A DNA stretch of 64,000 nt. Origin: an uncultured Candidatus Saccharibacteria bacterium (GTDB lineage Bacteria; Patescibacteriota; Minisyncoccia; Phycocordibacterales; UBA5272). The notes beneath the pieces were generated by a model. That model did no database searches. It had not been told where the DNA came from and saw only the letters and a program-made list of their open reading frames with translations. The position numbers and the translations under genes were made by a program. The stretch is taken from positions 570 to 64,569 of the forward strand of contig CAZIHL010000002.1 of NCBI GenBank assembly GCA_964538815.1, written 5' to 3'. This document shows positions 5,594 to 58,278 of the stretch, piece by piece (positions within the stretch are counted from its first letter, which is position 1; each line of letters starts with the position of its first letter).

Positions 5594-5597
5594 AATT

Positions 5598-6199: not shown

Positions 6200-6697
6200 T
6201 TATATTTTATATTTATCATTTCTTTTTAATAATTCTTCTTTTAAATTTAAATTATTTATTTTTTCTTCACCCAAAATATCTAACCTACTAGATAATTCTT
6301 TAAGTTTTTCATGTGTTATATGCTTAGCTTCTATTTCTTTATTCTTTTTTATTTCTGCTTCTCTTTTTAAATTTTCTATAATTCTAAGCTCACTTTTTTC
6401 TGGTGCTATTTCTTCTTTCTTTTTTATCCAAACATAAGTTTTATTTCCTAATATAAATTTATAAGCAGCCTCTAAAATATCCGCAAAAGGTCTATTGTTA
6501 ATTTTAACAAAAGCCAAAGCTAAAAAGGTACCAGAAAATATAAGTATAAATAAAATAGAAATTATTTTAAAAGGTATTAATTTCCAAAAAATATAAGCAA
6601 AAGCTAAAGCCCCAAGCAAATAACCAAACTGTTTAAATGTAAAAGGTCCAAAAACTTTATCTTCAATATCTAAGAATTGGGGAAGTCTAAATTGCAT
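6200..6697 (-). CDS. PrgI/VirB3-like small membrane protein
   Basis: Two hydrophobic helices (GYLLGALAFAYIFWKLIPFKIISILFILIFSGTFLALAFV) immediately upstream of virB4, the canonical position of VirB3/PrgI. C-terminal charged coiled-coil tail. Confidence 0.55.
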   Translation of the reverse strand: MQFRLPQFLDIEDKVFGPFTFKQFGYLLGALAFAYIFWKLIPFKIISILFILIFSGTFLALAFVKINNRPFADILEAAYKFILGNKTYVWIKKKEEIAPEKSELRIIENLKREAEIKKNKEIEAKHITHEKLKELSSRLDILGEEKINNLNLKEELLKRNDKYKI

Positions 6698-6727
6698 AAA
6701 TATATTTTAACATTAATAATATATTTT

Positions 6728-10900: not shown

Positions 10901-11293
10901 TTTATCAGTATAGTTTATTTTTACTGATTGAGAATATTCTTTAGTAAACTCTTCTGAGTATTTTGTTAAACTAGTAGTAATAAGAGTTTTTATTTCAGAG
11001 GATGTTAGAAGTATGTCTGAGTCAGAATAAAAATAACATCCAGTATTTGCCTTATTTAATTTATCTATAGTTATAGAGTCATTTACTGGAACAGTATTTA
11101 TGTACACTTGAGTTCCTTTTATTATGTAGTCAATATTTAATTTTGAATTGCCTGCCCCTTCACATTTTTCTCCTGAATGAATATATACAGAAGCTTTAGA
11201 AATATTTATATTAAAAGTAAAAAATAGAATAACGATCCAAAATACTTTTAATATTTTTTTAGAAAAAATATCAGAAAATAAATTTCTTTTCAT
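7904..11293 (-). CDS. VirB6/TrbL-like polytopic membrane protein with N-terminal secreted domain and ~500-aa Asn/Gln/Lys/Glu-rich cytoplasmic tail
   Basis: Signal peptide, ~300-aa ectodomain, at least 6 predicted TM helices in the central region, then a long low-complexity tail with an internal KDKRKEKMIKFINNHFKEN / ENKRKEKIMKSISEFEEKN duplication and a QNQNTNN tract. Confidence 0.6.
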   Translation of the reverse strand: MKRNLFSDIFSKKILKVFWIVILFFTFNINISKASVYIHSGEKCEGAGNSKLNIDYIIKGTQVYINTVPVNDSITIDKLNKANTGCYFYSDSDILLTSSEIKTLITTSLTKYSEEFTKEYSQSVKINYTDKITQIKVNATTTPLIAELTKIIDNTKTYTGMVGATTTSFQSLYNDVLNVEEIYGFDDFKIILVRQRRIYLYKQLKVIQDKYQNLDTETSKIINEMINKSYDGGPWNWSGEEEKLREDEINPTGGVYGKVSRKGRDFPLIINEQNEPIKDPETGGAAQTSTVKQCSPTAGFWDTFIGATNCSIVAYLINMLLQGLNSLFKMILTLSEKLFDWVMGFSVYNFSDLVSNSGAYEVWRKVILALVTSLLLPIVFYYIIRMLIDNDTAQIQKILPKILFTALFVYFSFSIVGFLIDQANVFSIYIYRSLHNPNQSIASSMERLIIGDPSLKSQEIISLGAWDSVPAFGIQVLITGVAIIIFFQAAILIFIRGITLVLCMIFSPVMLLPAGINSYIDKYRDMVIKYFTNATIMAPIFLFLLLIAMKVGDAGSALIQNTSALTTENISGQLTGAAISGVISIIILQLAITTAKNLSGEIGAKVSGKISGTIGSLAFGGASKALRMGAGKVVNSKKFDGWIAKGGTRGRLALKLQDYAQNSTFDARNSKVFQAATKGTFGKGGNTTIDSSFRKRYAKEKHFYDRLNDDAKGKHINNLRSGWTGTSVIFNGNRVADRLESKNKNLSFEEKIDTNNRLAGNFNKINKESDKDKRKEKMIKFINNHFKENGKGEEYFSKELEKPKNSKLKEDFDKIIKDEPDENKRKEKIMKSISEFEEKNKKNQNTNNTTNTQNQQNQNTNNITQNQNTAQNTNNTTQNQNSVPAPSIKNVSAQESLKSRLQFSQAQSKNKEEFEKHNASLGNKIKNNGGVMNQEILDKELADRISNRRKALEEKRGDIETNLKKENKLRKEENQRYTSDQYQKTVLQDLEEKNRSKNQTNNTQKIRENLESISKDIKDLTVTTKDYANTLKNISLINRARTESNSKIDVIKPEENTKPNIVAEIGGNSMQNQSQRALSEMAHNLRMESMPVGRIEPVRTNIKPEKVEKKVNVKSTRKDNLDGNDYINR
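8640..8800 (-). repeat. In-frame ~39-bp imperfect tandem repeat (about 3-4 units) encoding the Asn/Gln/Thr tract of the VirB6-like protein
   Basis: ttttgattttgagtt(g/a)tattatttgtattttg recurs at 8652 and 8691 with further degenerate copies. This corresponds to the QNQNTNNITQNQNTAQNTNNTTQNQN stretch in the protein. Confidence 0.6.
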
Positions 11294-15617: not shown

Positions 15618-15794
15618 GAGGGTATTGTAGCATTAAAGCAGAAAACTTTGAAAATTTAAAAGTAAAATAGATTGACATTAAAAACAAATAAATGTTTTTG
15701 AGAACTGACGACGCTCAGCAGAGTCTAGGAAGTTTGAAAAAATATTTTTTGTTTTTTAGAAAACTTTTGGAAACTTTGAAAGTTTAACAAAAAA

Positions 15795-15830
15795 TACTGG
15801 GTAGCGCCGAAGGCGCTACCCAGTATTTTA
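15795..15830 (-). terminator. Rho-independent terminator downstream of uvrD; member of the CCGAAGG-apex hairpin family
   Basis: tactgggtagcgccgaaggcgctacccagta followed by a T-tract on the minus strand. Confidence 0.6.
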
Positions 15831-22425: not shown

Positions 22426-22508
22426 AAGAAAAAGATTTTATATAAAAATTATATCATAAAAAGAAATTATGAAATTAAAAGGACAATATTTTAATATTGT
22501 CCTTTTAA

Positions 22509-25507: not shown

Positions 25508-25541
25508 AAAAAGACATCTTTGATGTCTTTTTATTTATTAA
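25508..25541. terminator. Bidirectional terminator hairpin between xth and the convergent surface-protein gene
   Basis: aaaagacatctttgatgtctttttattt. Confidence 0.55.
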
Positions 25542-30782: not shown

Positions 30783-30824
30783 AAAATCATTTTAACATAG
30801 ATATTTTTGGTAAATGTAAATAAA

Positions 30825-30850
30825 TTGTCCCGCGCCGAAGGCGCGGGACA
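30825..30850 (-). terminator. Terminator hairpin (CCGAAGG-apex family)
   Basis: ttgtcccgcgccgaaggcgcgggacaa, with a U-rich tract on the minus strand. Confidence 0.55.
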
Positions 30851-31301: not shown

Positions 31302-31652
31302 TTTGTTAAATTTAAAAGGTTTTAAAATAAATATATTTATATATAGAGTTAATTATTTTAGAAAGTTTTAAATTCGTTCTTAATTTTATTGAAAAAGAAC
31401 AAATCATATATCTATATATAGTATAGCATAGTGAGTTTTGTTTGTCAAGGGGTGGAGAGGTGGTTTTGGGGAGGAATTTTAGGGGGCGGCACGAAGCGCC
31501 GGCCCAGTATTTTTAAATTTCTTAAATTTTTGACTTTTTATTTTTTGTGTGATAACATATAAGTATTATTAAGGGTGTTATAAGTGTGGGGCTAGGTCGA
31601 GCGGTTGCTCGATTTTTTCTTTCACTTTTTATTATTTATTATTTTAATTATT

Positions 31653-35274: not shown

Positions 35275-35997
35275 TTATTTTTCAATAAATTTAAATGCAG
35301 ATACTATAGCTGATGTTTCCGCCCTAAGTATATTTTTCCCAAAAGATGCTATTTTTAAATTATATTTTTTAAATAATTCTCTTTCTTCTTGTGTCCATCC
35401 ACCTTCTGGCCCAATAAAAATATATAATTTATTAGTATTGTTATTTATTTCTCTATTTTCTTTTTCAATAATATCTAAAACTATAACTTTTTTAATTTCC
35501 CCTTTCTTTTCAATATCTAGTAAAAATTCCTTTAATTTTTTTTCTTTATTTAATACTGGAACACTTCCCCATCCAGACTGCTCCGTAGCCTCCATTATTA
35601 GCCTCTCAGCCCTTTCTTTATTAAAGCTAGCAATATTCTTCTTTTCCACTCTGTCAGATATTATAGGTGTAAATTCTGACACTCCTATCTCAGTACATTT
35701 TTCTAGAACAAGATCTAGATTATCTTTTTTAAGCAAAGATACACATAAGTTTATTGTCATCTTTTCTTCTTTTTGTAAAAGGTTTATAGCCTTTTCTTTT
35801 AAAGAAAGTTTTACTTCTCTTTTTTTAATATCTTTAATGGTATATACATAGTCAAATTTCTCTTTACCGTTAAAGAGAATTAGATTTTCATCTATTTTAA
35901 ATTTGAGTACATTATTCCATTGATGTAATAATTGTTTTTCTTTTATTAAAACTTCTTCACCAAGAGGATTGTTTAAAAAGAATCTGTGTATCTTCAT
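35275..35997 (-). CDS. rsmE: 16S rRNA (uracil1498-N3)-methyltransferase RsmE
   Basis: Start reassigned to MKIHRFF. C-terminal FIGPEGGWTQEERELF...KNILRAETSAIVS matches the RsmE signature. Confidence 0.8.
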   Translation of the reverse strand: MKIHRFFLNNPLGEEVLIKEKQLLHQWNNVLKFKIDENLILFNGKEKFDYVYTIKDIKKREVKLSLKEKAINLLQKEEKMTINLCVSLLKKDNLDLVLEKCTEIGVSEFTPIISDRVEKKNIASFNKERAERLIMEATEQSGWGSVPVLNKEKKLKEFLLDIEKKGEIKKVIVLDIIEKENREINNNTNKLYIFIGPEGGWTQEERELFKKYNLKIASFGKNILRAETSAIVSAFKFIEK

Positions 35998-36059
35998 AAA
36001 AGTATGAATTAAAAATAATTTACAAGAAACAATACGACATTGCAAATATTTAAAAAGAC

Positions 36060-36440
36060 AATATTTTTCAATGTCATTTTATGATAAAAAATTTATAAAG
36101 GACATAAAATAAAAGAGACATAAAGGACAAATTATAAAAATAATTTATAAAGGACAGTTATCCACAATCATTTATTAAAAACATATTGCAAATATTTTTA
36201 TGTCCTTTATAATAAGTACAGGGTGAGCAGCTTAGGATAAAAGCACTACCCGGCTTACGGGAAAAATATAAATAATATCCTCGCAAGCTGGTCTCACTAA
36301 ATAGTTCATTACAATAGCAACGCATTAGTTGCAAATAATAAATAATAGCCCAAAAACTTATATATTTGTCCTTTATAAAATTTAAAAGGACAGACTCGTC
36401 TTTTAAAAATATTATTAAAGATTTAAAAGGCATATTATTA
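36060..36440. repeat. Cluster of TTATAAAGGACA motifs (at least 5 copies, both orientations) plus a perfect DnaA box TTATCCACA (about 36148)
   Basis: tataaaggacataaaat, gacataaaggacaaat, tataaaggacagttatccacaatc, tatgtcctttataat, tttgtcctttataaaatttaaaaggacag. Modules are shared with the repeats at 43440-43640, 53671-53790 and 54397-54512. Confidence 0.6.
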
Positions 36441-36479
36441 ACTTGTGAAAGTTAATAAAAATTTATCTCAAATACCAGA

Positions 36480-36716
36480 GAGATAAACTATAAGGACGAC
36501 ACCTTTAAAACAGTCAAAATTATTTTTCGTGTCCAGTGATCTGCATATGAGGGAATGTAGCTCGCTGGACATGAGACAACCCCTCTAAAATTCCCCAATC
36601 TCATGTTCAGGTCAGGTAGAGCCTTTGCTCCCGCTGATAATATTATGGGGAGTTTTTTATTTCTAAAATTTAATAAAGAAATATAAAAAACGCTTGTAAA
36701 ACAAGCGTTTTTGTTT
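36480..36716 (+). ncRNA. Candidate structured small RNA of unknown identity, bounded by two T-tract hairpins
   Basis: Inverted repeats gtccag...ctggac and catgaga...tctcatg; ctcccgctgataatattatggggag followed by tttttt (about 36657); and aacgcttgtaaaacaagcgtttttgttttt (36688-36716). Relatively GC-rich in an AT-rich spacer with no ORF. Confidence 0.3.
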
Positions 36717-36730: not shown

Positions 36731-37369
36731 TTAATGTGTGGAAGCATATTTTGAGACTTTTTTTGGATCAGGATCTCTGAAAATAAATCTTTCAAGATTC
36801 TTCCTAACACTTTCTGCAACTTTTTCTGACATACTTGCATCTAAATTCATATTCAAAGCTAAATGTTCATAAATGATTTTAGCAAGCTCAGAGCATTTTT
36901 CTTGGTCTAACGCTTCATAAAATTCTTCTTCTTGAGATTTTATACTCATTTCAAGATAAATTTTCATGTTTTTGTGCTCTACACCTATTTTTTTATAAGC
37001 TTTTTTAATTTTAATATATTCATTAATTAATGAATATATTAAATAAGGAAGACAGAAAAATGTAAAAAAACTAAAAGAAATATAAAAAATCTCTCTTTTT
37101 GTTTCAATTAATTCATAATATGAAAAATAAGAAGCAAAAGAAGAGATGATCAATAATATTAAATAAAATTTAAAAGAAATAAATATTGTTTCTCTTCTTT
37201 TTTTTAGACTTTTTAGTATCTCTGATTTCTTAATATAAGAAGTCTCGGAGAGCCTACTCGTTAAAATTTCGTCTTTAGAGTTTTTTATTAAACTCAAATA
37301 AGTATCTTTTTCCATTTTTTTATTTTTTTTGTTGGTTAAAGAATTAAATTTGCTTATAAAAGAATACAA
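36731..37369 (-). CDS. Hypothetical membrane protein (2-3 TM)
   Basis: Hydrophobic segments ILLIISSFASYFSYY and FFTFFCLPYLIYSLI. Confidence 0.45.
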   Translation of the reverse strand: MYSFISKFNSLTNKKNKKMEKDTYLSLIKNSKDEILTSRLSETSYIKKSEILKSLKKRRETIFISFKFYLILLIISSFASYFSYYELIETKREIFYISFSFFTFFCLPYLIYSLINEYIKIKKAYKKIGVEHKNMKIYLEMSIKSQEEEFYEALDQEKCSELAKIIYEHLALNMNLDASMSEKVAESVRKNLERFIFRDPDPKKVSKYASTH

Positions 37370-37827: not shown

Positions 37828-37848
37828 TCTTACTTTGGTTTTTAAATA

Positions 37849-37886
37849 AAATGCCCCACGCCGAAGGCGTGGGGCATTTTATTTTT
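37849..37886 (+). terminator. Rho-independent terminator after hup (CCGAAGG-apex family)
   Basis: aaatgccccacgccgaaggcgtggggcattttattttt. Confidence 0.7.
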
Positions 37887-40193: not shown

Positions 40194-40305
40194 ATTAAAG
40201 ATAAATAAATATAAATTGTCCTACGCCTCTGGTGTGGGCAATTTTAGTTAAGTCTATTTAACATTGTCCTTTTCACACACTTTATTTTCTGATATATTAT
40301 TAATA

Positions 40306-41263: not shown

Positions 41264-41410
41264 GTTATTCAATTTTATTTTTAACTTTTGAGTATAGTCC
41301 AGCGACTCGTTGTCTAACTCATATTGCAAATCAGTTAGATGTTAAGCTGCTACACTGCACTCTATTATTTCTTTTTAGCAAAGATATTTTATCATAAATT
41401 AAAAAATAAA

Positions 41411-41447
41411 TACAGGGCGGCGCCGAAGGCACCGCCCTGTATTTATT
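41411..41447. terminator. Terminator hairpin (CCGAAGG-apex family) after the 373-aa membrane protein gene
   Basis: tacagggcggcgccgaaggcaccgccctgta followed by atttatttt. Confidence 0.6.
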
Positions 41448-42569
41448 TTAATAAACCATTATATTCTGCAATCCTACAAGTCTTCCATCTGCAAGCACTC
41501 TGACTCTCCACTCCCCTTTCGAAATATTACTAATTTGTGTGTATCCTCTATAGCCCTCTTCTCTACCCCCAGAAATAGGATAACCTATTTCAGCTTCTTT
41601 TATCCAAATTTTTCTCTCAGCATCATACTTTTCCCAGACATGGGTAATATCTGCCGATACATTTGCTGGTGAAATTATACTTGAGTAAAAATACATCTCC
41701 CCTCCATTTATTTCTTTAAGTGTTAGTAAATCATAATGATCTTTATTTAAGATAAAAAATTTTTTATCTTGTACCAGCCCTCTATCTTCCCTATTATAAG
41801 TATATCCACCACCAACATCTATCTTTTCAACTTTTGTATAAAATCCAGAATCCCCTAATGCTAGAGGCACTGCTGGGATATAGTTTATAAAATAAAGTCT
41901 AAGCATTAAAAACGGAAAGAATATAGAAAATATTATAAGAAATATAAAATCTCTACTAGATAAATATATTCTTTGCAATAAAACTGTGAGTATAGAAGTT
42001 AAAATAACAGCAATTAAAATAGAAACAAAAAAAGTATAAGTATTAACTTTATTTACTACAATAGGCACATTAAAGATTATGTAAAAAGTTAATCCTATAT
42101 AAAATAGAATCAAATCAGGAACTCTTCCATACATAAATTCATTCAGAATGATAGCAATAAGAATAATTAAAAATATTGGCCACATTTGAATAACATCAGA
42201 GCTTCTAAAATAATAGACTAAAGTATTGGATAAAAGCGTTCCCAAGAAAAATGAAACCCAGAATGTTGCCCAGCGAGTAGCTTTTTCTATCCTTTTATAA
42301 CCTTTTGTTTTTAAATCATCAAAAGTTTTCTTTTCCTCTGTTTCTTGTGAAACTTTTAATTCTTTCTTTATTTTCTTTGTACGTTTTATCAGATTCCCCT
42401 GTACTGCCTGTCTTGCAAAAATGAAAATTAAAATAACAGTAATATTAATTGGTCCTACCCATATATAATACGGAGATGTGGTTTTTGGTAAAATTAATAT
42501 ATCTGTAATAAAACCAGTAAAAAAAGAAATAGTTTTAAAATGTTTTATACAAAATTTAACGAAAGACAT
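41448..42569 (-). CDS. Polytopic membrane protein with C-terminal soluble domain, unknown function
   Basis: At least 7 hydrophobic helices, then a ~130-aa C-terminal domain. Confidence 0.5.
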   Translation of the reverse strand: MSFVKFCIKHFKTISFFTGFITDILILPKTTSPYYIWVGPINITVILIFIFARQAVQGNLIKRTKKIKKELKVSQETEEKKTFDDLKTKGYKRIEKATRWATFWVSFFLGTLLSNTLVYYFRSSDVIQMWPIFLIILIAIILNEFMYGRVPDLILFYIGLTFYIIFNVPIVVNKVNTYTFFVSILIAVILTSILTVLLQRIYLSSRDFIFLIIFSIFFPFLMLRLYFINYIPAVPLALGDSGFYTKVEKIDVGGGYTYNREDRGLVQDKKFFILNKDHYDLLTLKEINGGEMYFYSSIISPANVSADITHVWEKYDAERKIWIKEAEIGYPISGGREEGYRGYTQISNISKGEWRVRVLADGRLVGLQNIMVY

Positions 42570-43039: not shown

Positions 43040-43400
43040 GAATTAATTGTCTTATTTCACAAGAAACAATATAAATACACTATATTTCATTTTTTGTTAA
43101 GTAAAAAATATCACATTTTATGTTAAGAATCATTTCATATAAAATAATGAAATACAAATATTTTATTAACACTTCATTACATTTTTCAACTAGGTTTATT
43201 ATCATATATTTCATATGAAACTTTAGAATATTATGAAATACTCATTTCACACGAAACAAACTCAAGTATGCTTGGAGAAAGCATATAAAAAATAAGTATT
43301 TCACATGAAAACCTTAATGTATTTCTTTTGGGTTTTTTGATTTATATTTTAATAAAACATAAGAGATTAAATTAGTTTCACGTGAAACAATTATATAGAT
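43040..43400. promoter_or_regulatory. Array of at least 6 palindromic TTTCAC-N(1-3)-GTGAAA-like sites in a 650-bp AT-rich spacer at a gene-strand switch (candidate operator array or origin-associated repeats)
   Basis: atttcacaagaaac (43052), tttcatatgaaact (43209), tgaaatactcatttca and atttcacacgaaac (43235-43258), tatttcacatgaaaac (43297), and the perfect palindrome gtttcacgtgaaac (43375). One more copy at 44686 (rc atttcacaagaaacg). Confidence 0.55.
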
Positions 43401-43439
43401 TACTGGTATAATTCGAGACAAATAGATATAAAAGACAAA

Positions 43440-43640
43440 AAAGCTTGAAAATAAAGGACTTTTTAAAGGACAAGTATTATATGTCTTTTTATGCTTGTCT
43501 TTTTAAATGTCGTTTATACACATATGCACTGATTTATCCACCATTTTTGACAAAAGGACAAAATATCTCACAAAAAAGACAGTATTTAATGTCTTTTTGA
43601 TAATATATAAAATATATGTCTTTGACGGTATTATAAATCT
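43440..43640. repeat. Degenerate copy of the dispersed intergenic repeat family (AAGGACA modules, AAATGTCGTTTATA, DnaA-box-like TTATCCACC)
   Basis: aaatgtcgtttata (43506) is identical to the module in the 115-bp repeats. Also gatttatccacca, and multiple aaaggaca/tgtcttt copies. Confidence 0.5.
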
Positions 43641-44346: not shown

Positions 44347-44350
44347 ATTA

Positions 44351-44376
44351 TTATTTTGTGCGGCGTAGGAGAATCG
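44351..44376. repeat. Direct repeat of the tRNA-Gly(GCC) 3' end (partner copy at 44526-44551)
   Basis: ttattttgtgcggcgtaggagaatcg at 44351 versus ttatttttgtgcggcgtaggagaatcg at 44526. Degenerate tRNA-like fragments (gctcagttcgattcttc) lie between. Confidence 0.6.
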
Positions 44377-44534
44377 GTCACCAAACATAGTCGCTTTGCT
44401 CCTTGTTTCGCGACCCCGGCTTCGCTGTCTCAAAAATTTTTACAAATTTTTGGCTTCGCAGACAGCTCAGTTCGATTCTTCTACTTGCCAAAAATATATT
44501 CCAAAAATCTTTCAGCTTTTTCTCATTATTTTTG

Positions 44535-44605
44535 TGCGGCGTAGGAGAATCGAACTCCTGTCTCATCCTTGGCAAGGACGTGTTCTACCACTAAACCAAC
44601 ACCGC
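44535..44605 (-). tRNA. tRNA-Gly (anticodon GCC), no encoded CCA
   Basis: rc is GCGGTGT-TG-GTTTAGTGGTAGAACA-CGTCC-TTGCCAA-GGATG-AGAC-AGGAGTTCGATTCTCCT-ACGCCGC-A. Confidence 0.85.
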
Positions 44606-44724: not shown

Positions 44725-45012
44725 CCTCTTCCTCAAATGATCGCGATTTCTAACTTATTTTAGGAATTGAGGAAAGTCGGAACACATACTTCTTTATAGT
44801 TAAAATGGTAGTGGGTAACACCCATCCGCCGTGAGGCGCGAGTTGCGAACAGAGACGAGCCGGTTTAGTCCGGTTGAAACGGCTAAATACTTACCTATGT
44901 GCAAGGTCGTGCTTTGATTCATTTCAAAGAGTGCCGCTTGAGGTGAAAGGAAACTTTTATCCCAGATAAATGATCATATAAACAGAATTCCGCTTATGAT
45001 GAAGAGATAAGA
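44725..45012 (+). ncRNA. rnpB: RNase P RNA (bacterial, reduced); boundaries approximate to about 20 nt
   Basis: P4 5' strand GAGGAAAGUCGGAAC, GGGUAACACCCAUC, ACAGAGACGAGCC, GGUUGAAACGGCUAAA (GNRA-rich module), AGAGUGCCGCUUGAGG, and P4 3' strand ACAGAAUUCCGCUUAU. These match conserved RNase P RNA elements. Confidence 0.75.
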
Positions 45013-46846: not shown

Positions 46847-46850
46847 AAAC

Positions 46851-46889
46851 AAAATGCCCCGCGCCGAAGGCGCGGGGCATTTTGTTTTT
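46851..46889 (+). terminator. Rho-independent terminator after cca (CCGAAGG-apex family)
   Basis: aaaatgccccgcgccgaaggcgcggggcattttgttttt. Confidence 0.7.
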
Positions 46890-48711: not shown

Positions 48712-49230
48712 ATGAAAATAACTTTTTATACTGATGGAGCAAGCCGTGGAAATCCTGGAAGAGGTGGTTGGGGAGTATATACAGAAATCGAAAGTAGTAA
48801 CGGGCAAAAAAAAGAATTTAAACTTTCTGGTGGAAAATTTTCTACAACAAATAATAGAATGGAATTAACTGCAGCTATACAAGCACTACGATTTTTGAAT
48901 TCTGTAATTTTAAATAAATATTTTGTAGACAAAAAACATCTCGGTAAGGAATTTTTTGTAACTATTAAAACTGACTCTAAATATGTGAAAACTGGTATTG
49001 AGGAATGGATTATAAATTGGGAGAAAAATAATTGGAAAAGTGCAAATAAAAAGCCTGTCCTTAATAAAGATCTTTGGCAAGAGCTTTTGTCCATTAAAAA
49101 TCTTATAAACGACAAACTTGTAAAGGACAATTTTGAAGAAATCAAATGGGAATATGTTAAAGGACATTTTGGTATAACAGGAAATGAAATAGCGGATTCT
49201 TTAGCTACAAAAGCAATAGACAACATATAA
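48712..49230 (+). CDS. rnhA: Ribonuclease HI
   Basis: YTDGASRGNPGRGGWG, TNNRMELTAAIQAL, KTDSKYV, and WEYVKGHFGITGNEIAD align with E. coli RNase HI catalytic DEDD residues. Confidence 0.9.
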   Translation: MKITFYTDGASRGNPGRGGWGVYTEIESSNGQKKEFKLSGGKFSTTNNRMELTAAIQALRFLNSVILNKYFVDKKHLGKEFFVTIKTDSKYVKTGIEEWIINWEKNNWKSANKKPVLNKDLWQELLSIKNLINDKLVKDNFEEIKWEYVKGHFGITGNEIADSLATKAIDNI

Positions 49231-53653: not shown

Positions 53654-53670
53654 ATATATTTTATATTATA

Positions 53671-53790
53671 TAAGACAAAGTTATCCACAATAACTTTTAT
53701 ATAAAATATTGTCCTTTATAAAATGTCGTTTATAATATAAATATATAAGACATTGGGTCAGCATTTTGCTGGTCTTTTTGTTTTATAACT
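53671..53790 (+). repeat. ~115-bp dispersed repeat copy A with perfect DnaA box (TTATCCACA) and TTATAAAGGACA module, immediately upstream of a PG-binding protein gene
   Basis: tataagacaaagttatccacaataacttttatataaaatattgtcctttataaaatgtcgtttataatataaatatataagacattgggtcagcattttgctggtc. About 97% identical to 54397-54512. Confidence 0.85.
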
Positions 53791-54342
53791 ATGTATAAAA
53801 ATATGATTTTTTTTAAAAAAATATTAATATCAATATTAACTATTTTAATATATTTTGTTGGAATAAGATATTCTTTTGGACAAACTGGTTATTCTATAGA
53901 TTCTTTTGCTCCAATACAAATGGATATACCTTGTATAGATGCTAAATATGATCTTAAGTTAGGTTCAAGAGATTATGCGCTATTTGGAAATGTTATGAAA
54001 TTACAATTATTTTTATACCAAAATGAAATGATGTATTATCCGCCAACTGGATATTTTGGACCAATAACACAAAATGCGTTGATAAAGTATCAAATAGCAA
54101 GAAAATTAAATACTACAGGAATATTTGATATAAATACAAGAAATATCTTAGCCCAGGAAACTTGTGGAGTTGGTAATTTTAATTTAAATGATTATTCAAT
54201 TCAAACTAATACCAATACTGGTAATGTTATAAATATTGATAATATATTTAATTCAAATACTAATAGTCAAAGCAATAATCAGGTCCAAAATTCAAATAAT
54301 TCTAATATGCAAAACGTATCAAGTGATATATTTTCAAATTAA
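53791..54342 (+). CDS. Secreted peptidoglycan-binding-domain protein with Asn/Gln-rich C-terminus
   Basis: Signal/TM; PG_binding_1-like repeat NVMKLQLFLYQNEMMYYPPTGYFGPITQNALIKYQIARKLNTTGIFD. Confidence 0.6.
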   Translation: MYKNMIFFKKILISILTILIYFVGIRYSFGQTGYSIDSFAPIQMDIPCIDAKYDLKLGSRDYALFGNVMKLQLFLYQNEMMYYPPTGYFGPITQNALIKYQIARKLNTTGIFDINTRNILAQETCGVGNFNLNDYSIQTNTNTGNVINIDNIFNSNTNSQSNNQVQNSNNSNMQNVSSDIFSN

Positions 54343-54396
54343 TTTATATTATTTTAGATAAAAGACACTCTATAATATAGAGTGTCTTTTATCGTA

Positions 54397-54512
54397 TAAG
54401 ACAAAGTTATCCACAATAACTTTTATATAAAGTATTGTCCTTTATAAAATGTCGTTTATAATATAAGTATATAAGACATTGGGTCAGCATTTTGCTGATC
54501 TTTTGTGTTTAT
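54397..54512 (+). repeat. ~115-bp dispersed repeat copy B (DnaA box plus TTATAAAGGACA module), immediately upstream of the next gene
   Basis: Near-identical to 53671-53790, with 3-4 mismatches. Confidence 0.85.
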
Positions 54513-54951
54513 ATGCTGTTTTAAGTATACATTTATTATGAATAATAAAAAGATAAAAATTTTTTTAGAAGAAAACAGGTTACCTTTATCTGGAAATCTT
54601 TATATAAAAAATAAAAGAAGAATAAATTTAAATAGATTTTTTAAATTTAGTCTTTTAACAATATCTTTTATATTTATAGTATTTATATCTATATATGCTT
54701 TTTTTTTAAAAAACAAAACAAATGCAGAATCTATAAATCAAACAACTATTTTAAATCAACTTTCAAAAAATATAATTTTGCCAAAAGAAGAAATTATAAA
54801 CATTATGAGAATATCTAATGCAAAAGAACTTTCTTCACAAGATAAATTTTATGAAAATATTGAAAATGGTGATTATATTTTAATTTTTAAAAATATGTCT
54901 ATGATTTATGATTTTGATAAAAACCTTATTAAAAATATAAAAACTTATTAA
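54505..54951 (+). CDS. Hypothetical single-TM protein
   Basis: TM FKFSLLTISFIFIVFISIYAFF. Confidence 0.4.
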   Translation: MFICCFKYTFIMNNKKIKIFLEENRLPLSGNLYIKNKRRINLNRFFKFSLLTISFIFIVFISIYAFFLKNKTNAESINQTTILNQLSKNIILPKEEIINIMRISNAKELSSQDKFYENIENGDYILIFKNMSMIYDFDKNLIKNIKTY

Positions 54952-54964: not shown

Positions 54965-57900
54965 ATGAAAAAAATATTATTCATACTAACAATCATTCTT
55001 TCTTTCTCTTTCATATCAGTAAATGCTCAATCTTGCTATAAATACACATCTCCAATGAGTGTTGGAAGTAAAGACTCTACTACAAATGGAGAAGTTTCAA
55101 AATTGCAAGCATATCTATATGACCTCGGTTATTTAAATGTAAAACCAACAGGATATTTTGGCGAATTAACAAAAGCTGCCGTTATAAAATATCAGCAAAG
55201 TAGAGGTATAGATCCAGTAGGGTCAGCAGGACCTATTACAAGATTATCTTTGTCAAATGAATGTAATACAGCAAATAATAATAATAATAATAATAATAAT
55301 TATTATGCTGGAAATTATAATTTAAGTAACAATAAAGATGTTTTAAATAATGCAAGTAATCAAACCGGCACACAATCTCAAGTGCAAGTTACTTTTTATT
55401 CATTAGATGAAAATGTAACTTTAAAAGTTCCACTAGGATCAATTTTAAATCTACCAAGCTTACCTACTAGAAGTAAATTCTCTTCATATGTATTCGTTGG
55501 TTGGTATGTTGATCAATCATATACTACAGCATATAGCAATCAACCAATTGTTAATAATACAAATCTTTATGCAAAATGGGTAAAGAATTGTTCTACAAAT
55601 GGAGTCGTGTATCCAAATGATTGTGATAGTACAAATATTGCAAGCAGTACAGCAAATAAGACAGAAGTGGTTTCTACAAAAGTATGTATTATAAACGGTA
55701 TTTCTATAACAGTAGCTTCTAATATTAATTGCGATACTTTAAAAACAAATGCAAATAATATGGCGACTTCAACAGCAACTTCAACAGCAAATAAAGATAA
55801 TTCAAATAATAGTGGCGGAATTTATAAATATCCAAATAGTAATGTTACAGGAGTGATTAAGTATTGTATAATATATAGAAATATTAATAAATACGCACCA
55901 GTTGGTAATGCTAAAGGACAGACTTATGCGTATAAACTACCACAAGTAATAGCTTATGTAGATTTAGGAGGTATGGATTGTGCAGAAGGAGTGTCTTTTA
56001 ATTATATTGATAAAGCTTTTGTAAAAGTAGAGCCATACACACAATCAAAAGTATATAAATGTTCAATAAATAATAATAATATTCTGCCTTATTACACTAG
56101 CATAGAAACTGGATGTCGCGAAATTCTAGATGATATTGCTGGAGTCCCAAACTGGAAAGCTACTGAAAAAATTGTAGATGTTTCAGAGACCACTTCTTTT
56201 TTTAATGAAGATAAAGAAAACAACATCCCTTCAGCTGGGCTACCCCCAGTTTGGTATAATGACGAAAATCATTATAAAGATGTACTTAATTGGCCTGGAG
56301 TTAAAAAATGTACTGCTGGTATATGGACTATCAAATGGCCAAGTAATTTAGATTGTCCGATAGGTTATGATGTGCGTAATAATTTACCAGGAGGCGCGAC
56401 AAATGAAAATAACGGCATGTCACATATATATTCAGATATGAATGAAAAATCTACAGAGAAAAAACTTCTTGATGATGGTATTGTGAATATTGTAAAAAAT
56501 GGAGAATATCCTTTCACTTATCATGGAGTTGCCTTAGAGACTGAAATGGTTAAATACACTGCAAGATATTGTATATGGGGTAATATATTGTATTATGCTA
56601 AAATTGATAGAGAATATTCATCAAAATGTCCTAAACCTGACTCAACAAATAATTGGACTATAAATTTCCAAAAAGATTTATTCCCTAAATATTATGGAAA
56701 ACTTTATAATGGAGATTCTATAGATTATTGGCGTAATCCTATTAAAATTGAGAAAGCTAATCCAATACCATTAGAAGATAAATATTTACCTATAGAAATA
56801 TTCTATAACACTACTACAGAATTAAATTTTTCAAAGTACTCTTTAGATGGATATTATTTTGACGGTGTATATAGTGATTTTACTTACAAAAACTTAGTAT
56901 CAGATACAAAAATAGTAGCACCTGATGGAGTTAATAATTTGATAAATTATGTCAAATGGTCTAAAGTTTGTCCTAATGGTAAAAAAATAATCTGGCCAAA
57001 TACATGTAATTATGTTGAGAAGAATAGTCATTATGGTATTTATGCAGTAAATGACAGCAATATAAATGGAAGTATGATACCGCTTATGATGTGGAACATA
57101 CAAAATCCTATATCAGATAATTGGCTTAAACAAGCAAACAGAATCCCTCATGAGTTTGCTGGAGCATTTTCAGATAAAGAATATAAAAACAAAATAGCTT
57201 TATCAGGGGCCACTTACTTAACATCAGATATGTATCTTAAATGGACTTTAAATTGTTCTGACGGAAGTACAGTTGTATATCCTGATTATTGTCCTGCTAA
57301 TACTAAAATAGCCACATCAACATATACTATTAATTTTAATTACAGATCTAAAGGAGAAAATAGAAAAGTATTAATACCTACTAATGCACCTTTGACTTTG
57401 TCTATAGATATGCCAAAAGATGAATTTGTAAGTCATAAAACAAGAGCTTGGCTTGTAAATTTAGATAAACAGAAGAAATTTATAGGAGATAAAAGTCCAA
57501 AAGGATATGTTATTGATAAATGGTCTTATGAAAGTGTTTCTATGACCACAGATGGTTTCAATCCAAAAATAACTAAAATAGATGTTAAGATTTCAGAGAA
57601 TTATGAACCTGGGAAATATGTAATAATGTTCTGTACTCCTGAGCAGCCAGTAGCTTGTCTTGATTATAACGAAAAAGATGGTGTGTCAGATGTTTTTGAA
57701 TTAGTAACTTCATTATCTGGAGTAGGATCAGGGCAACAAGGATCAGTACTCGGAGTATCCACATATCAATTTTCTGATGAATTAAAGAAAGGAGATAAAG
57801 GAGAAGAAGTGTTAAAATTGCAAAAAATATTAATTTCTTTTGGTGAAAATATTGAAGCAACAGGGTATTTTGGAAAAAAAACAAAAGAGGCACTTAAAAG

Positions 57901-58027
57901 ATTTCAAGAAAATCATAAAGAAGATATTTTAAAGCCAATAAAATTAAAAGAAGGTACTGGATATTTTGGTACATCTACTAGAAAATATTTAAATAATTTA
58001 TTTATAAATATAGTAACAGTTGATTAA
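54965..58027 (+). CDS. Large secreted Cys/Tyr/Asn-rich surface protein with PG-binding domains at both the N- and C-terminus
   Basis: Signal peptide; N-terminal GEVSKLQAYLYDLGYLNVKPTGYFGELTKAAVIKYQQSRGIDPVG and C-terminal GEEVLKLQKILISFGENIEATGYFGKKTKEALKRFQ (PG_binding_1-like); an Asn9 tract. Confidence 0.6.
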   Translation: MKKILFILTIILSFSFISVNAQSCYKYTSPMSVGSKDSTTNGEVSKLQAYLYDLGYLNVKPTGYFGELTKAAVIKYQQSRGIDPVGSAGPITRLSLSNECNTANNNNNNNNNYYAGNYNLSNNKDVLNNASNQTGTQSQVQVTFYSLDENVTLKVPLGSILNLPSLPTRSKFSSYVFVGWYVDQSYTTAYSNQPIVNNTNLYAKWVKNCSTNGVVYPNDCDSTNIASSTANKTEVVSTKVCIINGISITVASNINCDTLKTNANNMATSTATSTANKDNSNNSGGIYKYPNSNVTGVIKYCIIYRNINKYAPVGNAKGQTYAYKLPQVIAYVDLGGMDCAEGVSFNYIDKAFVKVEPYTQSKVYKCSINNNNILPYYTSIETGCREILDDIAGVPNWKATEKIVDVSETTSFFNEDKENNIPSAGLPPVWYNDENHYKDVLNWPGVKKCTAGIWTIKWPSNLDCPIGYDVRNNLPGGATNENNGMSHIYSDMNEKSTEKKLLDDGIVNIVKNGEYPFTYHGVALETEMVKYTARYCIWGNILYYAKIDREYSSKCPKPDSTNNWTINFQKDLFPKYYGKLYNGDSIDYWRNPIKIEKANPIPLEDKYLPIEIFYNTTTELNFSKYSLDGYYFDGVYSDFTYKNLVSDTKIVAPDGVNNLINYVKWSKVCPNGKKIIWPNTCNYVEKNSHYGIYAVNDSNINGSMIPLMMWNIQNPISDNWLKQANRIPHEFAGAFSDKEYKNKIALSGATYLTSDMYLKWTLNCSDGSTVVYPDYCPANTKIATSTYTINFNYRSKGENRKVLIPTNAPLTLSIDMPKDEFVSHKTRAWLVNLDKQKKFIGDKSPKGYVIDKWSYESVSMTTDGFNPKITKIDVKISENYEPGKYVIMFCTPEQPVACLDYNEKDGVSDVFELVTSLSGVGSGQQGSVLGVSTYQFSDELKKGDKGEEVLKLQKILISFGENIEATGYFGKKTKEALKRFQENHKEDILKPIKLKEGTGYFGTSTRKYLNNLFINIVTVD

Positions 58028-58080: not shown

Positions 58081-58278
58081 GTAGTAGTATCTTTACTTTT
58101 ATTTGCGTGTTTTATTTGCATATTTGTTAAATATGTGATAATATTTAGAGTATTCACTTGATATTAAGTTAAGTTTTTTCTCAAGTGGCTATTATTATTA
58201 GAATAAATAAGTCCAATATTATTTCGCGAATAGATGTAGAAATAACAACGACTTTTAATTAATTTATATAAATTTATT

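What the first reader, a model, noticed from the sequence alone, without database searches (positions are those of the whole stretch)
53671..54512. Dispersed ~115-bp intergenic repeat carrying a perfect DnaA box and a TTATAAAGGACA module, duplicated upstream of consecutive surface-protein genes
Two ~97%-identical copies (53671-53790 and 54397-54512) each end exactly at the start of the downstream gene. Related modular copies occur at 36060-36440 (at least 5 TTATAAAGGACA units plus TTATCCACA) and 43440-43640. Each contains agttatccacaat, and TTATCCACA is the canonical DnaA box. Each also contains AAATGTCGTTTATA and a small cagc-atttt-gctg hairpin. This looks like a mobile or recombining promoter cassette, or a regulon marker controlled by DnaA or by a factor recognising AAGGACA. 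That would link expression of cell-surface PG-binding proteins to replication status.
Basis: seen in the sequence. Interest (0 to 1): 0.6.

Follow-up and report, generated by a model that had tools for sequence, protein, structure and literature searches.

The report
Conserved promoter cassette with DnaA box
The two near-identical 107-120-bp repeats are copies of a promoter-plus-leader cassette, conserved in a group of tiny uncultured bacteria (Paceibacterota-type CPR), that sits in front of secreted and cell-wall-binding protein genes; it contains a perfect DnaA-box 9-mer at a fixed distance from the promoter, AAAGGACA-type boxes, and a terminator-like hairpin in the leader.

Summary
Window 53669-53775 and 54395-54501 are 104/107 identical, while the flanks and downstream genes are unrelated.

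It is neither a mobile element nor a duplication that includes coding sequence. The same cassette sits at the same two positions (M50 peptidase | PG-binding protein | small membrane protein | tuf) in relatives whose proteins are only 47-61% identical. It also precedes other secreted proteins and a conserved ~440-nt non-coding RNA (window 36221-36658).

Cassette order:
- DnaA-box 9-mer, whose start lies 55-57 nt before the end of the -10 hexamer in 24 of 25 promoters
- -35 TTGTCY
- TGTC(G/C)TT directly abutting TATAAT
- short AU leader
- stable hairpin plus U-tract (13 unrelated hairpin sequences)

The tuf, RNase P and tRNA promoters lack these elements, so this is a special promoter class and probably marks a regulon.

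AAAGGACA boxes occur across Patescibacteria. They are most concentrated in and upstream of the gene for a ~300-aa protein (four-helix bundle plus winged helix), which is my candidate box reader.

DnaA binding, transcription start sites and terminator read-through are all untested. The 97% identity of the window pair most likely reflects recent gene conversion.

The parts
53669..53677 (-). Copy A: inverted box variant (TATAAGACA on + strand), left edge of the repeat
   Evidence: An inverted box (TAAAnGACA) lies 1-3 nt 5' of the 9-mer in most family members.
53681..53689 (+). Copy A: perfect DnaA-box 9-mer TTATCCACA, centred about -59 if transcription starts 7 nt after the -10
   Evidence: The distance from box start to -10 end is 56 nt, as in 17 of 21 family promoters.
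53709..53714 (+). Copy A: -35-like hexamer TTGTCC (part of box TGTCCTTTATAA, 53710-53721)
53724..53736 (+). Copy A: box TGTCGTT (53724-53730) abutting the -10 hexamer TATAAT (53731-53736)
   Evidence: 16-nt spacer. TGTC(G/C)TTTATAAT is invariant in alignment A2.
53737..53754 (+). Copy A: AU-rich initial transcribed region ATAAATATATAAGACATT. Predicted start near 53743. It contains a second -10-like TATAAG and a box variant AAGACA.
   Evidence: The start site is inferred, not measured.
53755..53785 (+). Copy A: leader hairpin GGGTCAGCAttttGCTGGTCT (53755-53775) plus T-tract TTTTTGTTTT; terminator-like
   Evidence: terminator scan; -7.2 kcal/mol, z -2.55. 13 different hairpin sequences occupy this position in the family.
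53791..54342 (+). Gene for a 183-aa signal-peptide protein with a PG_binding_1 domain, driven by copy A
   Evidence: Orthologues lie behind the same cassette in L014, L104, L115 and L117.
54360..54391 (+). Separate terminator hairpin of the 183-aa gene (AAAAGACACTCTATAatatAGAGTGTCTTTT), built from box-like arms
   Evidence: fold -29.7 kcal/mol for the 110-nt stretch.
54395..54511 (+). Copy B: inverted box 54395-54403, DnaA box 54407-54415, -35 at 54435-54440, box plus -10 at 54450-54462, leader, hairpin 54481-54501, T-tract 54502-54511
   Evidence: (-10.8 kcal/mol, z -4.25).
54538..54951 (+). Gene for a 137-aa single-pass membrane protein driven by copy B, followed by the 1020-aa PG_binding_1/Flg_new protein (54965-58027)
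   Evidence: Homologues P0002-P0012 are 46-61% identical.
36145..36213 (+). Third promoter of the family: inverted box 36145-36156, DnaA box 36158-36166, -35 TTGCAA 36186-36191, TGTCCTT 36201-36207, TATAAT 36208-36213
   Evidence: 56-nt spacing; conserved in L071; nhmmer E 1.4e-4.
36221..36658 (+). Conserved structured non-coding RNA transcribed from that promoter (starts GGGUGAGC 7 nt after the -10; terminator-like hairpin plus U-run at 36627-36658). No Rfam family.
   Evidence: A homologue lies next to the candidate regulator gene in L121.
36054..36131 (-). Four boxes pointing toward rsmE (35275-35998, minus strand): the divergent side of the same control region
43431..43625 (.). Box cluster (about 10 TGTCnTTT/AAAnGACA in both orientations) with TTATACACA (43514) and TTATCCACC (43534), between yraN and ung. 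Not a canonical cassette.
   Evidence: The block TTTATACACATATGCACTG is conserved in L071.
49096..49154 (-). Cassette-like TTGTCC-17-TATAAG with TGTCGTT, antisense inside rnhA, without a DnaA box; possibly cryptic
   Evidence: nhmmer E 4.7e-5.

Best explanation
Each repeat is a complete regulated promoter-plus-leader cassette of a Paceibacterota-type (CPR) bacterium.

Core promoter. RNA polymerase with the housekeeping sigma factor uses -35 TTGTCC and -10 TATAAT, 16 nt apart.

Upstream site. A perfect DnaA-box 9-mer is held at a fixed distance: 56 nt from its start to the end of the -10, so its centre is near -59. That is the geometry of an upstream activator or co-regulator site. The most likely reader is DnaA; otherwise it is a protein with the same specificity.

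Boxes. TGTCnTTTA/TAAAnGACA boxes overlap the -35, abut the -10 and flank the 9-mer. I infer they are operators of a second, Patescibacteria-wide DNA-binding protein. My candidate is a ~300-aa protein with an Avd-like four-helix-bundle N-domain, a disordered linker and a C-terminal DeoR-type winged helix.

Leader. Transcription starts about 7 nt after TATAAT. The RNA carries a 10-12-nt AU leader and then a stable hairpin followed by a U-tract. This should act as a promoter-proximal intrinsic terminator (attenuator), so the downstream secreted-protein gene is expressed only by read-through. Where the upstream gene has no terminator of its own, the same hairpin also ends that gene's transcript.

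History. The cassette is ancient at both positions of this locus. The 97% identity of the two window copies reflects recent gene conversion between neighbours 726 bp apart.

Shown here: the sequence anatomy, its conservation, the fixed spacing, hairpin conservation with changing sequence, and the association of boxes with the candidate regulator gene. Inferred: who binds, where transcription starts, and whether the hairpin terminates.
For: Promoter. The scan finds TTGTCC-16-TATAAT in both copies. The block TTGTCYTTTATAA..TGTC(G/C)TTTATAAT is invariant in 15 aligned cassettes from about 10 contigs. In two genomes the same -10 with TGTC(G/C)TT lies 7 nt before the 5' hairpin of a conserved non-coding RNA, which fixes it as a promoter.

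Fixed spacing. The distance from 9-mer start to -10 end is 56 nt in 17 promoters, 57 in 3, and 45 in 1 (one helical turn less). It is 55-57 in four further cassettes from L115 and L117, whose intervening sequence is unrelated.

Association of the 9-mer with boxes. An exact TTATCCACA lies within 100 nt of 22 of 126 box clusters that were fetched by a pattern not containing it. Across 810 kb there are 57 exact boxes, against a mean of 8.1 for 200 same-composition 9-mers. 31 of the 57 lie within 60 nt of a box, in 4.8% of the sequence; controls average 0.3.

Special promoter class. The tuf, RNase P RNA and tRNA promoters lack both elements.

Hairpin. 13 unrelated sequences all fold (-7 to -20 kcal/mol; z -2.5 to -7.5 for the nine run through strand folding) and all are followed at once by a T-run. 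The hairpin is present whether the upstream gene is co-directional, separately terminated or divergent.

Targets. Downstream genes encode signal-peptide proteins: PG_binding_1, BNR/sortilin propellers, a collagen-like protein with a Peptidase_S74 (endosialidase chaperone) domain, and a small membrane protein.

Orthologous positions. The same gene order, with cassettes at both positions, is seen in L014, L104, L115 and L117.

Homogenisation. W m1 against W m2 is 95%; every other pair is 61-79%.

Candidate regulator.
- Its gene is in 14 of 112 loci fetched only by the box pattern.
- In four loci fetched through the protein instead, boxes are concentrated in and upstream of the gene: 17 vs 3, 7 vs 1, 10 vs 0 and 3 vs 1.
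- Inside the gene there are 7.5 boxes per kb, in all three codon frames.
- The family also occurs on the same 333-kb contig as cassette locus L055.
- The model shows a four-helix bundle plus a winged helix.
Against: - There are no transcription start site or RNA-end data for any of these organisms.
- The window encodes neither dnaA nor the candidate regulator, so their presence in this genome is assumed.
- Some cassettes carry TTATCCCCA, which departs from the DnaA consensus TTWTNCACA at a normally important position.
- Outside the cassette family, only 7 of 39 exact DnaA boxes have a good -10 at the expected distance, against roughly 3 expected. The fixed spacing could therefore be partly inherited rather than independently selected.
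- The window hairpins are the weakest of the family (-7.2 and -10.8 kcal/mol) and their U-tracts are interrupted.
- Two cassettes (L014 m1, L104 m1) have no hairpin.
- A terminator placed 12 nt after its own start site would waste most transcripts.
- The box-regulator link rests on co-localisation only. The ftsK-regulator spacer could be box-rich for another reason.
Confidence: 0.6

Rival explanations
1. The 9-mer is not read by DnaA. It is the site of another transcription factor, or part of a composite site read together with the flanking boxes, so there is no link to replication.
For: Variants TTATCCCCA and TTATCCACC occur in otherwise intact cassettes. The 9-mer is almost always flanked by boxes at 1-3 nt, which suggests a composite site. 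It is a single box, not a cluster as in known DnaA-regulated promoters of Bacillus subtilis (own knowledge).
Against: Most sites are exact matches to the strongest DnaA box. The commonest variant at the second position of the locus, TTTTCCACA, still fits TTWTNCACA. The 9-mer is about 7-fold over-represented overall in these contigs, also away from boxes: 26 against 7.8 for controls. DnaA domain IV is highly conserved among bacteria (own knowledge).
Confidence: 0.3
2. The leader hairpin is a 5' stabiliser of the mRNA (protection from RNase J/Y-type decay) rather than a terminator or attenuator.
For: In three promoters (the two ncRNA promoters and the L044/L105 cassette) the hairpin begins 7-8 nt after the -10, that is, at the RNA 5' end. 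The targets are probably highly expressed surface proteins. RNase Y is encoded in the window.
Against: In most cassettes about 10-12 unpaired nucleotides would precede the hairpin if the start is 7 nt after TATAAT. All 13 hairpins are followed immediately by 4-5 T, which a stabiliser does not need (chance about 0.02 each, by my own estimate from base composition).
Confidence: 0.3
3. The cassettes are genes for very short RNAs (promoter, ~35-45-nt hairpin RNA, terminator). The downstream protein genes would be transcribed only incidentally or from elsewhere.
For: The layout is promoter, hairpin, U-tract. The same promoter type drives a bona fide non-coding RNA.
Against: Hairpin sequences are not conserved at all between cassettes, so no common RNA product exists. 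In copy A only 5 nt separate the T-tract from the ATG, leaving no room for another promoter. Two cassettes lack the hairpin but keep the promoter and the gene.
Confidence: 0.1
4. It is a recent local duplication or a miniature mobile element (MITE-like) without regulatory meaning.
For: The two copies are 97% identical with sharp boundaries and unrelated flanks.
Against: Cassettes occupy the same two intergenic positions in genomes whose flanking proteins are only 47-61% identical. There are no terminal inverted repeats or target-site duplications. The window holds only 3-4 family members. Conservation is block-wise, matching promoter elements.
Confidence: 0.05
5. The DnaA box plus tandem AT-rich boxes are replication-origin-type elements (DnaA box next to 13-mer-like unwinding repeats), or plasmid iterons, rather than promoters.
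For: There is a formal resemblance to E. coli oriC (R1 box beside three AT-rich 13-mers; own knowledge). The cumulative GC-skew minimum and parS-like sites show that the window is origin-proximal. Long tandem box arrays next to a DnaA box exist in some contigs, for example L024.
Against: There are several cassettes per 5 kb, each directly upstream of a gene or RNA with fixed -35/-10 geometry and a leader hairpin. No rep gene is nearby.
Confidence: 0.04

Closest known systems
DnaA acting as a transcription factor at promoters carrying DnaA boxes (E. coli dnaA, nrdAB, lambda pR; Bacillus subtilis dnaA, sda, ywlC regulon) - own knowledge
   Same: The same 9-mer (TTATCCACA / TTWTNCACA) lies in a promoter region, with the potential to couple gene expression to the state of the initiator protein.
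   Different: Here there is one box at a strictly fixed upstream distance (centre about -59), on a set of secreted-protein and ncRNA promoters, always combined with a second kind of box. Known DnaA-regulated promoters usually have clusters of boxes at variable positions and belong to replication or DNA-damage genes. Binding was not tested here.
Class I activator-dependent promoters (e.g. CRP at -61.5 of lac P1) - own knowledge
   Same: A single factor site sits on a fixed helical face upstream of a sigma-70-type -35/-10. One variant is displaced by 11 bp (45 instead of 56 nt).
   Different: The -35 and -10 are already good matches, so activation may not be needed. The factor is unknown, and a second factor's boxes overlap the core promoter.
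Promoter-proximal intrinsic terminators / attenuators and processive antitermination systems for surface-structure operons (lambda Q at PR'-tR', RfaH-ops, LoaP, Bacteroides UpxY) - own knowledge
   Same: A terminator-like hairpin plus U-tract lies between the promoter and long genes for surface proteins. A conserved -10-like TATAAG lies in the initial transcribed region, as in sigma-dependent pause sites.
   Different: The leader is only about 45 nt with no conserved RNA sequence. No antiterminator gene, ops or qut-like element or leader peptide was identified. Termination itself is unproven.
Autoregulated winged-helix repressors and centromere-binding proteins whose own gene carries their sites (B. 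subtilis Spo0J/parS inside spo0J; TubR; DeoR family) - own knowledge, plus fold matches
   Same: The candidate regulator has a C-terminal winged helix (weak PF08220 hit in distant member P0123; SmtB/Fur/TubR-like fold). Its gene and upstream spacer are saturated with the boxes.
   Different: The N-terminal domain is an Avd / 'S23 ribosomal protein family'-like four-helix bundle, not a DeoR sugar-binding domain. Boxes occur in irregularly spaced, mostly co-oriented arrays. The family is restricted to Patescibacteria in the search and is unannotated.
Concerted evolution of duplicated regulatory regions by gene conversion (e.g. rrn operon promoters) - own knowledge
   Same: Two neighbouring non-coding cassettes are far more alike than their orthologues in other genomes.
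   Different: The tract is only about 120 bp between copies 726 bp apart. In other genomes the within-genome excess similarity is small (71-77% against 61-79%), so conversion is sporadic.

Membership tests
DnaA box (binding site of the replication initiator) | 9-mer matching TTATNCACA / TTWTNCACA | tested here: met
   Exact TTATCCACA at 53681, 54407 and 36158. Family variants are TTTTCCACA (fits) and TTATCCCCA (does not fit).
DnaA box (binding site of the replication initiator) | Bound by DnaA protein | not testable with these tools
   There is no dnaA in the window. Needs EMSA, DAP-seq or ChIP.
DnaA box (binding site of the replication initiator) | Occurrence above chance and in a conserved position | tested here: met
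   57 observed against 8.1 for control 9-mers in 810 kb; 31 lie next to boxes. Fixed 55-57-nt spacing to the -10.
Sigma-70-type promoter | -35-like and -10-like hexamers separated by 16-18 nt | tested here: met
   TTGTCC-16-TATAAT at 53709-53736 and 54435-54462.
Sigma-70-type promoter | Conservation of the hexamers and their spacing in orthologous regions | tested here: met
   Alignment A2; L115 and L117; ncRNA promoters in two genomes.
Sigma-70-type promoter | Mapped transcription start site | not testable with these tools
   No RNA data are available. The start is inferred from the 7-nt gap between TATAAT and the 5' hairpin of the ncRNA.
Intrinsic (Rho-independent) terminator | Stable G+C-containing stem-loop followed directly by a U-tract | tested here: met
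   The terminator scan flags both copies: 2 found against 0.4 expected. 13 distinct hairpins, -7 to -20 kcal/mol, all followed by T-runs.
Intrinsic (Rho-independent) terminator | Transcripts end at the U-tract | not testable with these tools
   Needs Term-seq or in-vitro transcription.
Miniature inverted-repeat / mobile element | Terminal inverted repeats and target-site duplication | tested here: not met
   The ends of the repeat (TATAAGACAAAG... / ...TTTTGTTTTATA) are not inverted copies of each other, and the flanks share no duplication.
Miniature inverted-repeat / mobile element | Copies at non-orthologous, variable positions | tested here: not met
   The cassettes are at the same two positions in L014, L104, L115 and L117.
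Known cis-regulatory RNA (riboswitch, leader, T-box) in Rfam | Match to a curated covariance model | tested here: not met
   The whole window at gathering thresholds gave only RNase P RNA and 4 tRNAs.
Plasmid/phage iteron origin | Tandem iterons plus DnaA box next to a rep gene | tested here: not met
   The 46 of the 56 called window genes that were scanned include no rep gene; the last six are the S10-operon ribosomal-protein genes by position and synteny. The boxes coincide with the -35 and -10 of genes.
Operator set of a DeoR-type winged-helix regulator (candidate family P0013-P0128) | Motif concentrated at the regulator's own gene across lineages | tested here: met
   7.5 boxes per kb in the gene, in all three frames; upstream arrays of up to 10 boxes.
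Operator set of a DeoR-type winged-helix regulator (candidate family P0013-P0128) | Regulator encoded in the genome that carries the cassettes | tested here: inconclusive
   Present on the same 333-kb contig as cassette locus L055. Absent from the 64-kb window. The rest of the source genome could not be read.
Operator set of a DeoR-type winged-helix regulator (candidate family P0013-P0128) | Direct binding of the protein to the box | not testable with these tools
   Needs EMSA or DAP-seq.

The most novel reading that the evidence does not exclude
In Paceibacterota-type CPR bacteria, the replication initiator DnaA would work as a position-fixed (about -59) transcription co-regulator of a regulon of secreted, cell-surface proteins and an abundant ~440-nt non-coding RNA. 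It would act together with a lineage-specific, probably oligomeric (Avd-like four-helix-bundle) winged-helix protein that reads AAAGGACA arrays and coats its own gene. Output would be further gated by promoter-proximal terminators. This would be a compact three-layer control code tying the cell surface of an episymbiont to its replication state.
Probability: 0.2. Interest if true: 0.8.

Novelty: new variant of a known kind. Interest (0 to 1): 0.6.

Why it matters
Almost nothing is known about how CPR/Patescibacteria, which have tiny genomes and very few recognisable regulators, control their genes. I found no description of these motifs in the searchable literature.

This work gives three things that can be tested directly:
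- a conserved, precisely spaced cis-regulatory cassette in front of the proteins these organisms put on their surface, which are probably the interface with their hosts;
- a perfect DnaA box in a role other than the origin;
- a concrete, unannotated candidate regulator.

If confirmed, the cassette would also be a ready-made strong, regulated promoter for the emerging genetics of these bacteria, and a marker for predicting their surface proteome from metagenomes.

Tried and rejected
- **Source lookup.** The exact 183-aa protein is not in the gene index. The 137-aa protein is (P0001; NCBI and Logan), but only a 3.8-kb Logan contig could be read.
- **First metagenome scan.** The strict two-box pattern found nothing.
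- **Literature searches** for the motifs, CPR promoters and CPR DnaA boxes found nothing relevant. One Peregrinibacteria paper only mentions 'short repeats and DnaA box-like sequences' near the origin.
- **Boxes as the general promoter or extended -10 of these organisms:** rejected. The tuf, RNase P and 26 tRNA upstream regions mostly lack them.
- **tmRNA for the 36-kb RNA:** rejected. ARAGORN found none. The only Rfam hit was 10 bits at E 0.099. No tag reading frame is shared with L071 (by eye).
- **IHF site (WATCAANNNNTTR) overlapping the 9-mer:** fits some cassettes but not the window copies or L001, so dropped.
- **ECF-sigma, PhoB-box, WalR, LexA, NrdR and CtsR motifs:** compared from memory; none matches the spacing or sequence.
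- **DNA-uptake-sequence idea:** boxes also form terminator stems at 22478-22505, 25510-25531 and 54360-54391. Judged unlikely, because the boxes cluster in a few control regions in fixed promoter geometry.
- **Window ORF 36731-37369 as a diverged copy of the candidate regulator:** not homologous.
- **Box-to-box period histogram:** only a modest peak at 14 nt, not decisive.
- **L035 DnaA-box cluster:** inspected as a possible origin; no boxes nearby, not informative.
- **PDB sequence search with the regulator profile:** nothing meaningful.
Full report
**1. The observation**

The window is 28% G+C. It has a reduced RNase P RNA and gene content typical of a CPR/Patescibacteria genome.

The two repeat copies are real. 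53669-53775 and 54395-54501 match at 104 of 107 positions without gaps. Sequence 40 nt upstream of each copy is unrelated. The two downstream proteins are also unrelated: a 183-aa PG_binding_1 protein and a 137-aa single-pass membrane protein. One of the three differences, at 53772, converts a U.G pair to U-A in the hairpin.

Copy A stops a few bases before its ATG (53791). Copy B does not reach a gene start; the likely start is ATG 54538 rather than GTG 54505.

Motif counts in the window:
- TTATCCACA occurs three times against 0.63 expected.
- The 12-mer TTATAAAGGACA with up to one mismatch occurs 15 times against 1.19 expected, and no shuffle reached that.

**2. Anatomy**

Each copy reads, 5' to 3' (copy A coordinates):
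- TATAAGACA, an inverted box variant (53669-53677)
- TTATCCACA (53681-53689)
- TTGTCC, which is both the -35 and the start of the box TGTCCTTTATAA (53709-53721)
- TGTCGTT directly abutting TATAAT (53724-53736)
- an AU-rich stretch containing TATAAG (53737-53754)
- the hairpin GGGTCAGCAttttGCTGGTCT (53755-53775)
- TTTTTGTTTT

The consensus scans flag the promoter (TTGTCC-16-TATAAT) and the terminator-like hairpin in both copies. Two terminator-like sites were found against 0.4 expected.

**3. Relatives**

A scan of species-representative genomes, with the 9-mer and one box as anchors, found one hit. It lies in a Candidatus Paceibacterota MAG (L001). The hit shows the same order of elements, but with a different hairpin sequence followed by TTTTGTTTTT, upstream of a 1165-aa secreted collagen-like protein.

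A metagenome scan with two tandem boxes only (no 9-mer, no hairpin) returned 112 loci. An exact TTATCCACA lies within 100 nt of 22 of the 126 box clusters, mostly at -11 to -13 or -29/-30 on the same strand.

- The 9-mer occurs 57 times, against a mean of 8.1 for 200 control 9-mers of the same composition.
- 31 of the 57 lie within 60 nt of a box, although only 4.8% of the sequence is that close.
- Controls average 0.3.

Fifteen full cassettes were aligned (A2). The invariant blocks are (G/C)TTATCC(A/C)CA, TTGTC(C/T)TTTATAA and TGTC(G/C)TTTATAATAT.

**4. Fixed spacing**

The distance from the first base of the 9-mer to the last base of TATAAT is 56 nt in 17 promoters, 57 in 3 and 45 in 1. This set includes the promoter at window 36158-36213 and its orthologue in L071. 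Those two use a different -35 (TTGCAA, TTGATA) and have unrelated sequence between the 9-mer and the -35.

Four more cassettes, from loci found through the downstream protein (L115, L117), have spacings of 55-57 nt, again with unrelated intervening sequence.

With a start 7 nt after the -10, the 9-mer is centred near -59. The 45-nt case is one helical turn closer. This is the geometry of a factor site that must face RNA polymerase.

One caution applies. Outside this family, only 7 of 39 exact 9-mers have a good -10 at that distance. The rule is therefore established for the family, not for every DnaA box.

**5. It is a promoter, and a special one**

In the window and in L071, TGTC(C/G)TT-TATAAT is followed after 7 nt by GGGUG. 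This is the first base of a long 5' hairpin of a non-coding RNA that is conserved over about 440 nt between the two genomes, with indels that are not multiples of three. No Rfam family matches it.

The promoters of tuf (58100-58150), RNase P RNA, and the tRNAs of the window and of other loci are ordinary TTGnnn-17-TAnAAT promoters, without boxes or the 9-mer. The cassette is therefore not simply the strong promoter type of these organisms. It marks a subset of genes.

**6. The leader hairpin**

Thirteen cassettes with unrelated hairpin sequences all fold stably. Free energies are -7.2 to -20.4 kcal/mol, with z-scores of -2.5 to -7.5 for the nine folded with shuffles. Each hairpin is followed at once by four or five T.

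The hairpin is present in three different upstream contexts:
- the upstream gene is co-directional and has no terminator of its own (copy A, L001, L014, L037a, L098b, L104b);
- the upstream gene has its own terminator (copy B, L104c, L071);
- the upstream gene is divergent (L036, L044, L105).

So the hairpin belongs to the cassette's own transcript. In copy A only about 5 nt separate the T-tract from the ATG, so the gene must be transcribed through the hairpin.

I read it as a promoter-proximal intrinsic terminator (attenuator). In some contexts it doubles as the terminator of the upstream gene. A 5' stabiliser role is the main alternative. Two cassettes (L014 m1, L104 m1) lack the hairpin, so it is not obligatory.

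**7. Targets and synteny**

Genes behind cassettes encode signal-peptide or membrane proteins:
- the small PG_binding_1 protein;
- the small membrane protein;
- BNR/sortilin-type propellers of 763-1192 aa;
- a collagen-like protein with a Peptidase_S74 (endosialidase chaperone) domain;
- others.

The window locus has this order: rnhA, a 91-aa gene, comEC, MBL, a small gene, M50 peptidase, [cassette], PG-binding protein, [cassette], membrane protein, (1020-aa PG-binding protein), tuf, S10 operon. The same order with both cassettes recurs in L014, L115 and L117, and in part in L104. The membrane protein in L115, L117 and the search hits is only 46-61% identical to the window's.

The cassettes are therefore old at these positions, which excludes a recent insertion or mobile element.

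Over 105 nt, the window pair is 95% identical, whereas all other pairs are 61-79%. The simplest explanation is a recent gene-conversion event in this lineage. Some within-genome resemblance is also visible in L014, L115 and L117: shared spacer variants and shared first bases of the hairpin.

**8. The boxes and a candidate reader**

TGTCnTTTA/TAAAnGACA boxes occur in contigs of 25-51% G+C. They lie in conserved neighbourhoods: upstream of ftsK-recA, and near cca, rpsO and yraN.

They also form the arms of terminator-like palindromes between convergent genes. Window examples are 22478-22505, 25510-25531 and 54360-54391.

A ~300-aa protein encoded divergently from ftsK turned up in 14 of the 112 loci that had been fetched only by the DNA pattern. 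A homology search found 116 relatives. All are from Patescibacteria-type sources, and they are annotated at best as 'HTH deoR-type domain-containing'. One of them (P0064) lies on the same 333-kb contig as cassette locus L055.

Four loci were then fetched through the protein rather than through the boxes. In these, box 8-mers are concentrated in the gene plus 450 nt upstream: 17 vs 3, 7 vs 1, 10 vs 0 and 3 vs 1 in the rest of each locus.

Inside the genes there are 7.5 boxes per kb. They are almost all on the sense strand and occur in all three codon frames (22/14/39). This points to a constraint on the DNA rather than on the protein.

The AlphaFold model (mean pLDDT 69.5) shows three parts:
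- a confident four-helix bundle (residues 8-112), resembling Avd and 'S23 ribosomal protein family' bundles (TM 0.8-0.86 to the targets, E 0.009-0.07);
- a disordered linker;
- a C-terminal winged helix.

If the N-domain oligomerises as Avd does, several winged helices on flexible linkers would suit arrays with irregular spacing. This is inference from co-localisation only. The window itself does not encode the protein.

**9. What the 9-mer means**

It is a perfect DnaA box. The commonest variant at the second cassette of the locus (TTTTCCACA) still fits TTWTNCACA, and the 9-mer is over-represented generally. DnaA is thus the obvious candidate.

Against that, TTATCCCCA occurs in otherwise intact cassettes. 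There is only one box per promoter. The window has no dnaA. I put DnaA binding at roughly 0.4-0.5, and a real coupling to replication state lower.

**10. Context of the window**

The cumulative GC-skew minimum lies at about 22-30 kb, and gene orientation switches in the same region. parS-like sites cluster at 43053-43389 next to the 43.4-43.6-kb box cluster. The window is therefore origin-proximal. This may be why several DnaA-box-bearing regions lie close together, but the cassettes themselves are promoters.

**11. Verdict**

The feature is a conserved, occasionally homogenised promoter-leader cassette that marks a regulon-like set of surface-protein genes and one non-coding RNA. It combines a fixed-position DnaA-box 9-mer, AAAGGACA-type boxes and a terminator-like leader.

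It is a new variant of known kinds of element (factor-dependent promoter, attenuator). To my knowledge, and within the searchable literature, it has not been described.

Noticed in passing
window 36221-36658 (+); L071 5549-6031; L121 4868-5277 (minus strand): A conserved ~440-nt structured non-coding RNA. It starts GGGUGAGC with a long 5' hairpin and ends at a hairpin plus U-run. It has no Rfam family and is not a tmRNA by ARAGORN. In L121 it lies directly beside the candidate regulator gene.
   Followed up: partly
window 43053-43068, 43246-43260, 43299-43312, 43374-43389 (also 42339-42354): A cluster of parS-like sites (TTTCACnnGAAAC; the best, AGTTTCACGTGAAACA, is 1 mismatch from the B. subtilis-type parS) in the 650-bp yraN-ung spacer. 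The same TTTCACGTGAAAC motif lies near yraN in unrelated CPR contigs (L009, L090). Together with the GC-skew minimum at about 22-30 kb, this suggests the window is origin-proximal.
   Followed up: partly
loci L020 7532-8494, L025 7019-7930, L121 4001-4867, L123, L124, L125; proteins P0013-P0128: An unannotated Patescibacteria-only protein family of about 300 aa: an Avd-like four-helix bundle, a disordered K/D-rich linker and a DeoR-type winged helix. It is always divergent from ftsK-(x)-recA. Its gene and upstream spacer are packed with AAAnGACA boxes in all three reading frames, which encode recurrent YKGH and IKD motifs.
   Followed up: partly
window 44349-44378 versus 44525-44556: About 21-25 nt of the 3' end of tRNA-Gly(GCC) (minus strand, 44534-44605) is duplicated roughly 180 bp away. 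It looks like a remnant attachment-site duplication from an integration event.
   Followed up: no
window 41280-41355: A G+C-richer stretch next to tRNA-Pro that looks tRNA-like by eye but was not called by ARAGORN or Rfam.
   Followed up: no
window 15790-15822, 30818-30850, 37844-37876, 40209-40241, 46847-46879, 41405-41440: A family of G+C-rich hairpins with a GAAG loop (for example TGTCCCGCGCC-GAAG-GCGCGGGACA) at gene ends. This is a second, distinct terminator type in this genome, again with TGTCC/GGACA at the stem base.
   Followed up: no
window 22478-22505, 25510-25531, 54360-54391; L009 601-637, L090 9331-9367: AAAGGACA/TGTCCTTT boxes also occur as inverted pairs that form terminator-like palindromes between genes. 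The same 8-mer is therefore used in promoters and at gene ends.
   Followed up: partly
window 49096-49154 (minus strand): A cassette-like promoter (TTGTCC-17-TATAAG with TGTCGTT) antisense inside the RNase H gene, without a DnaA box. It may be a cryptic antisense promoter or a coincidence of coding sequence.
   Followed up: no
window 3782-7843: A type-IV-secretion-like gene set (TraG/VirB4-like ATPase 3782-5593, PrgI-family protein 6200-6697), followed by very large proteins with no Pfam match (7904-11293 and 11373-13868).
   Followed up: no
window 31440-31510: An unusually G-rich segment (GGGGTGGAGAGGTGGTTTTGGGGAGG...GGGGGCGGCACGAAGCGCCGGCCC) upstream of nusA in an otherwise 28% G+C genome. 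It could be a structured leader or a small RNA.
   Followed up: no
window 44725-45011: The RNase P RNA is strongly reduced (287 nt against a 367-position model) and scores 102.5 bits, just above the family threshold of 100.
   Followed up: no
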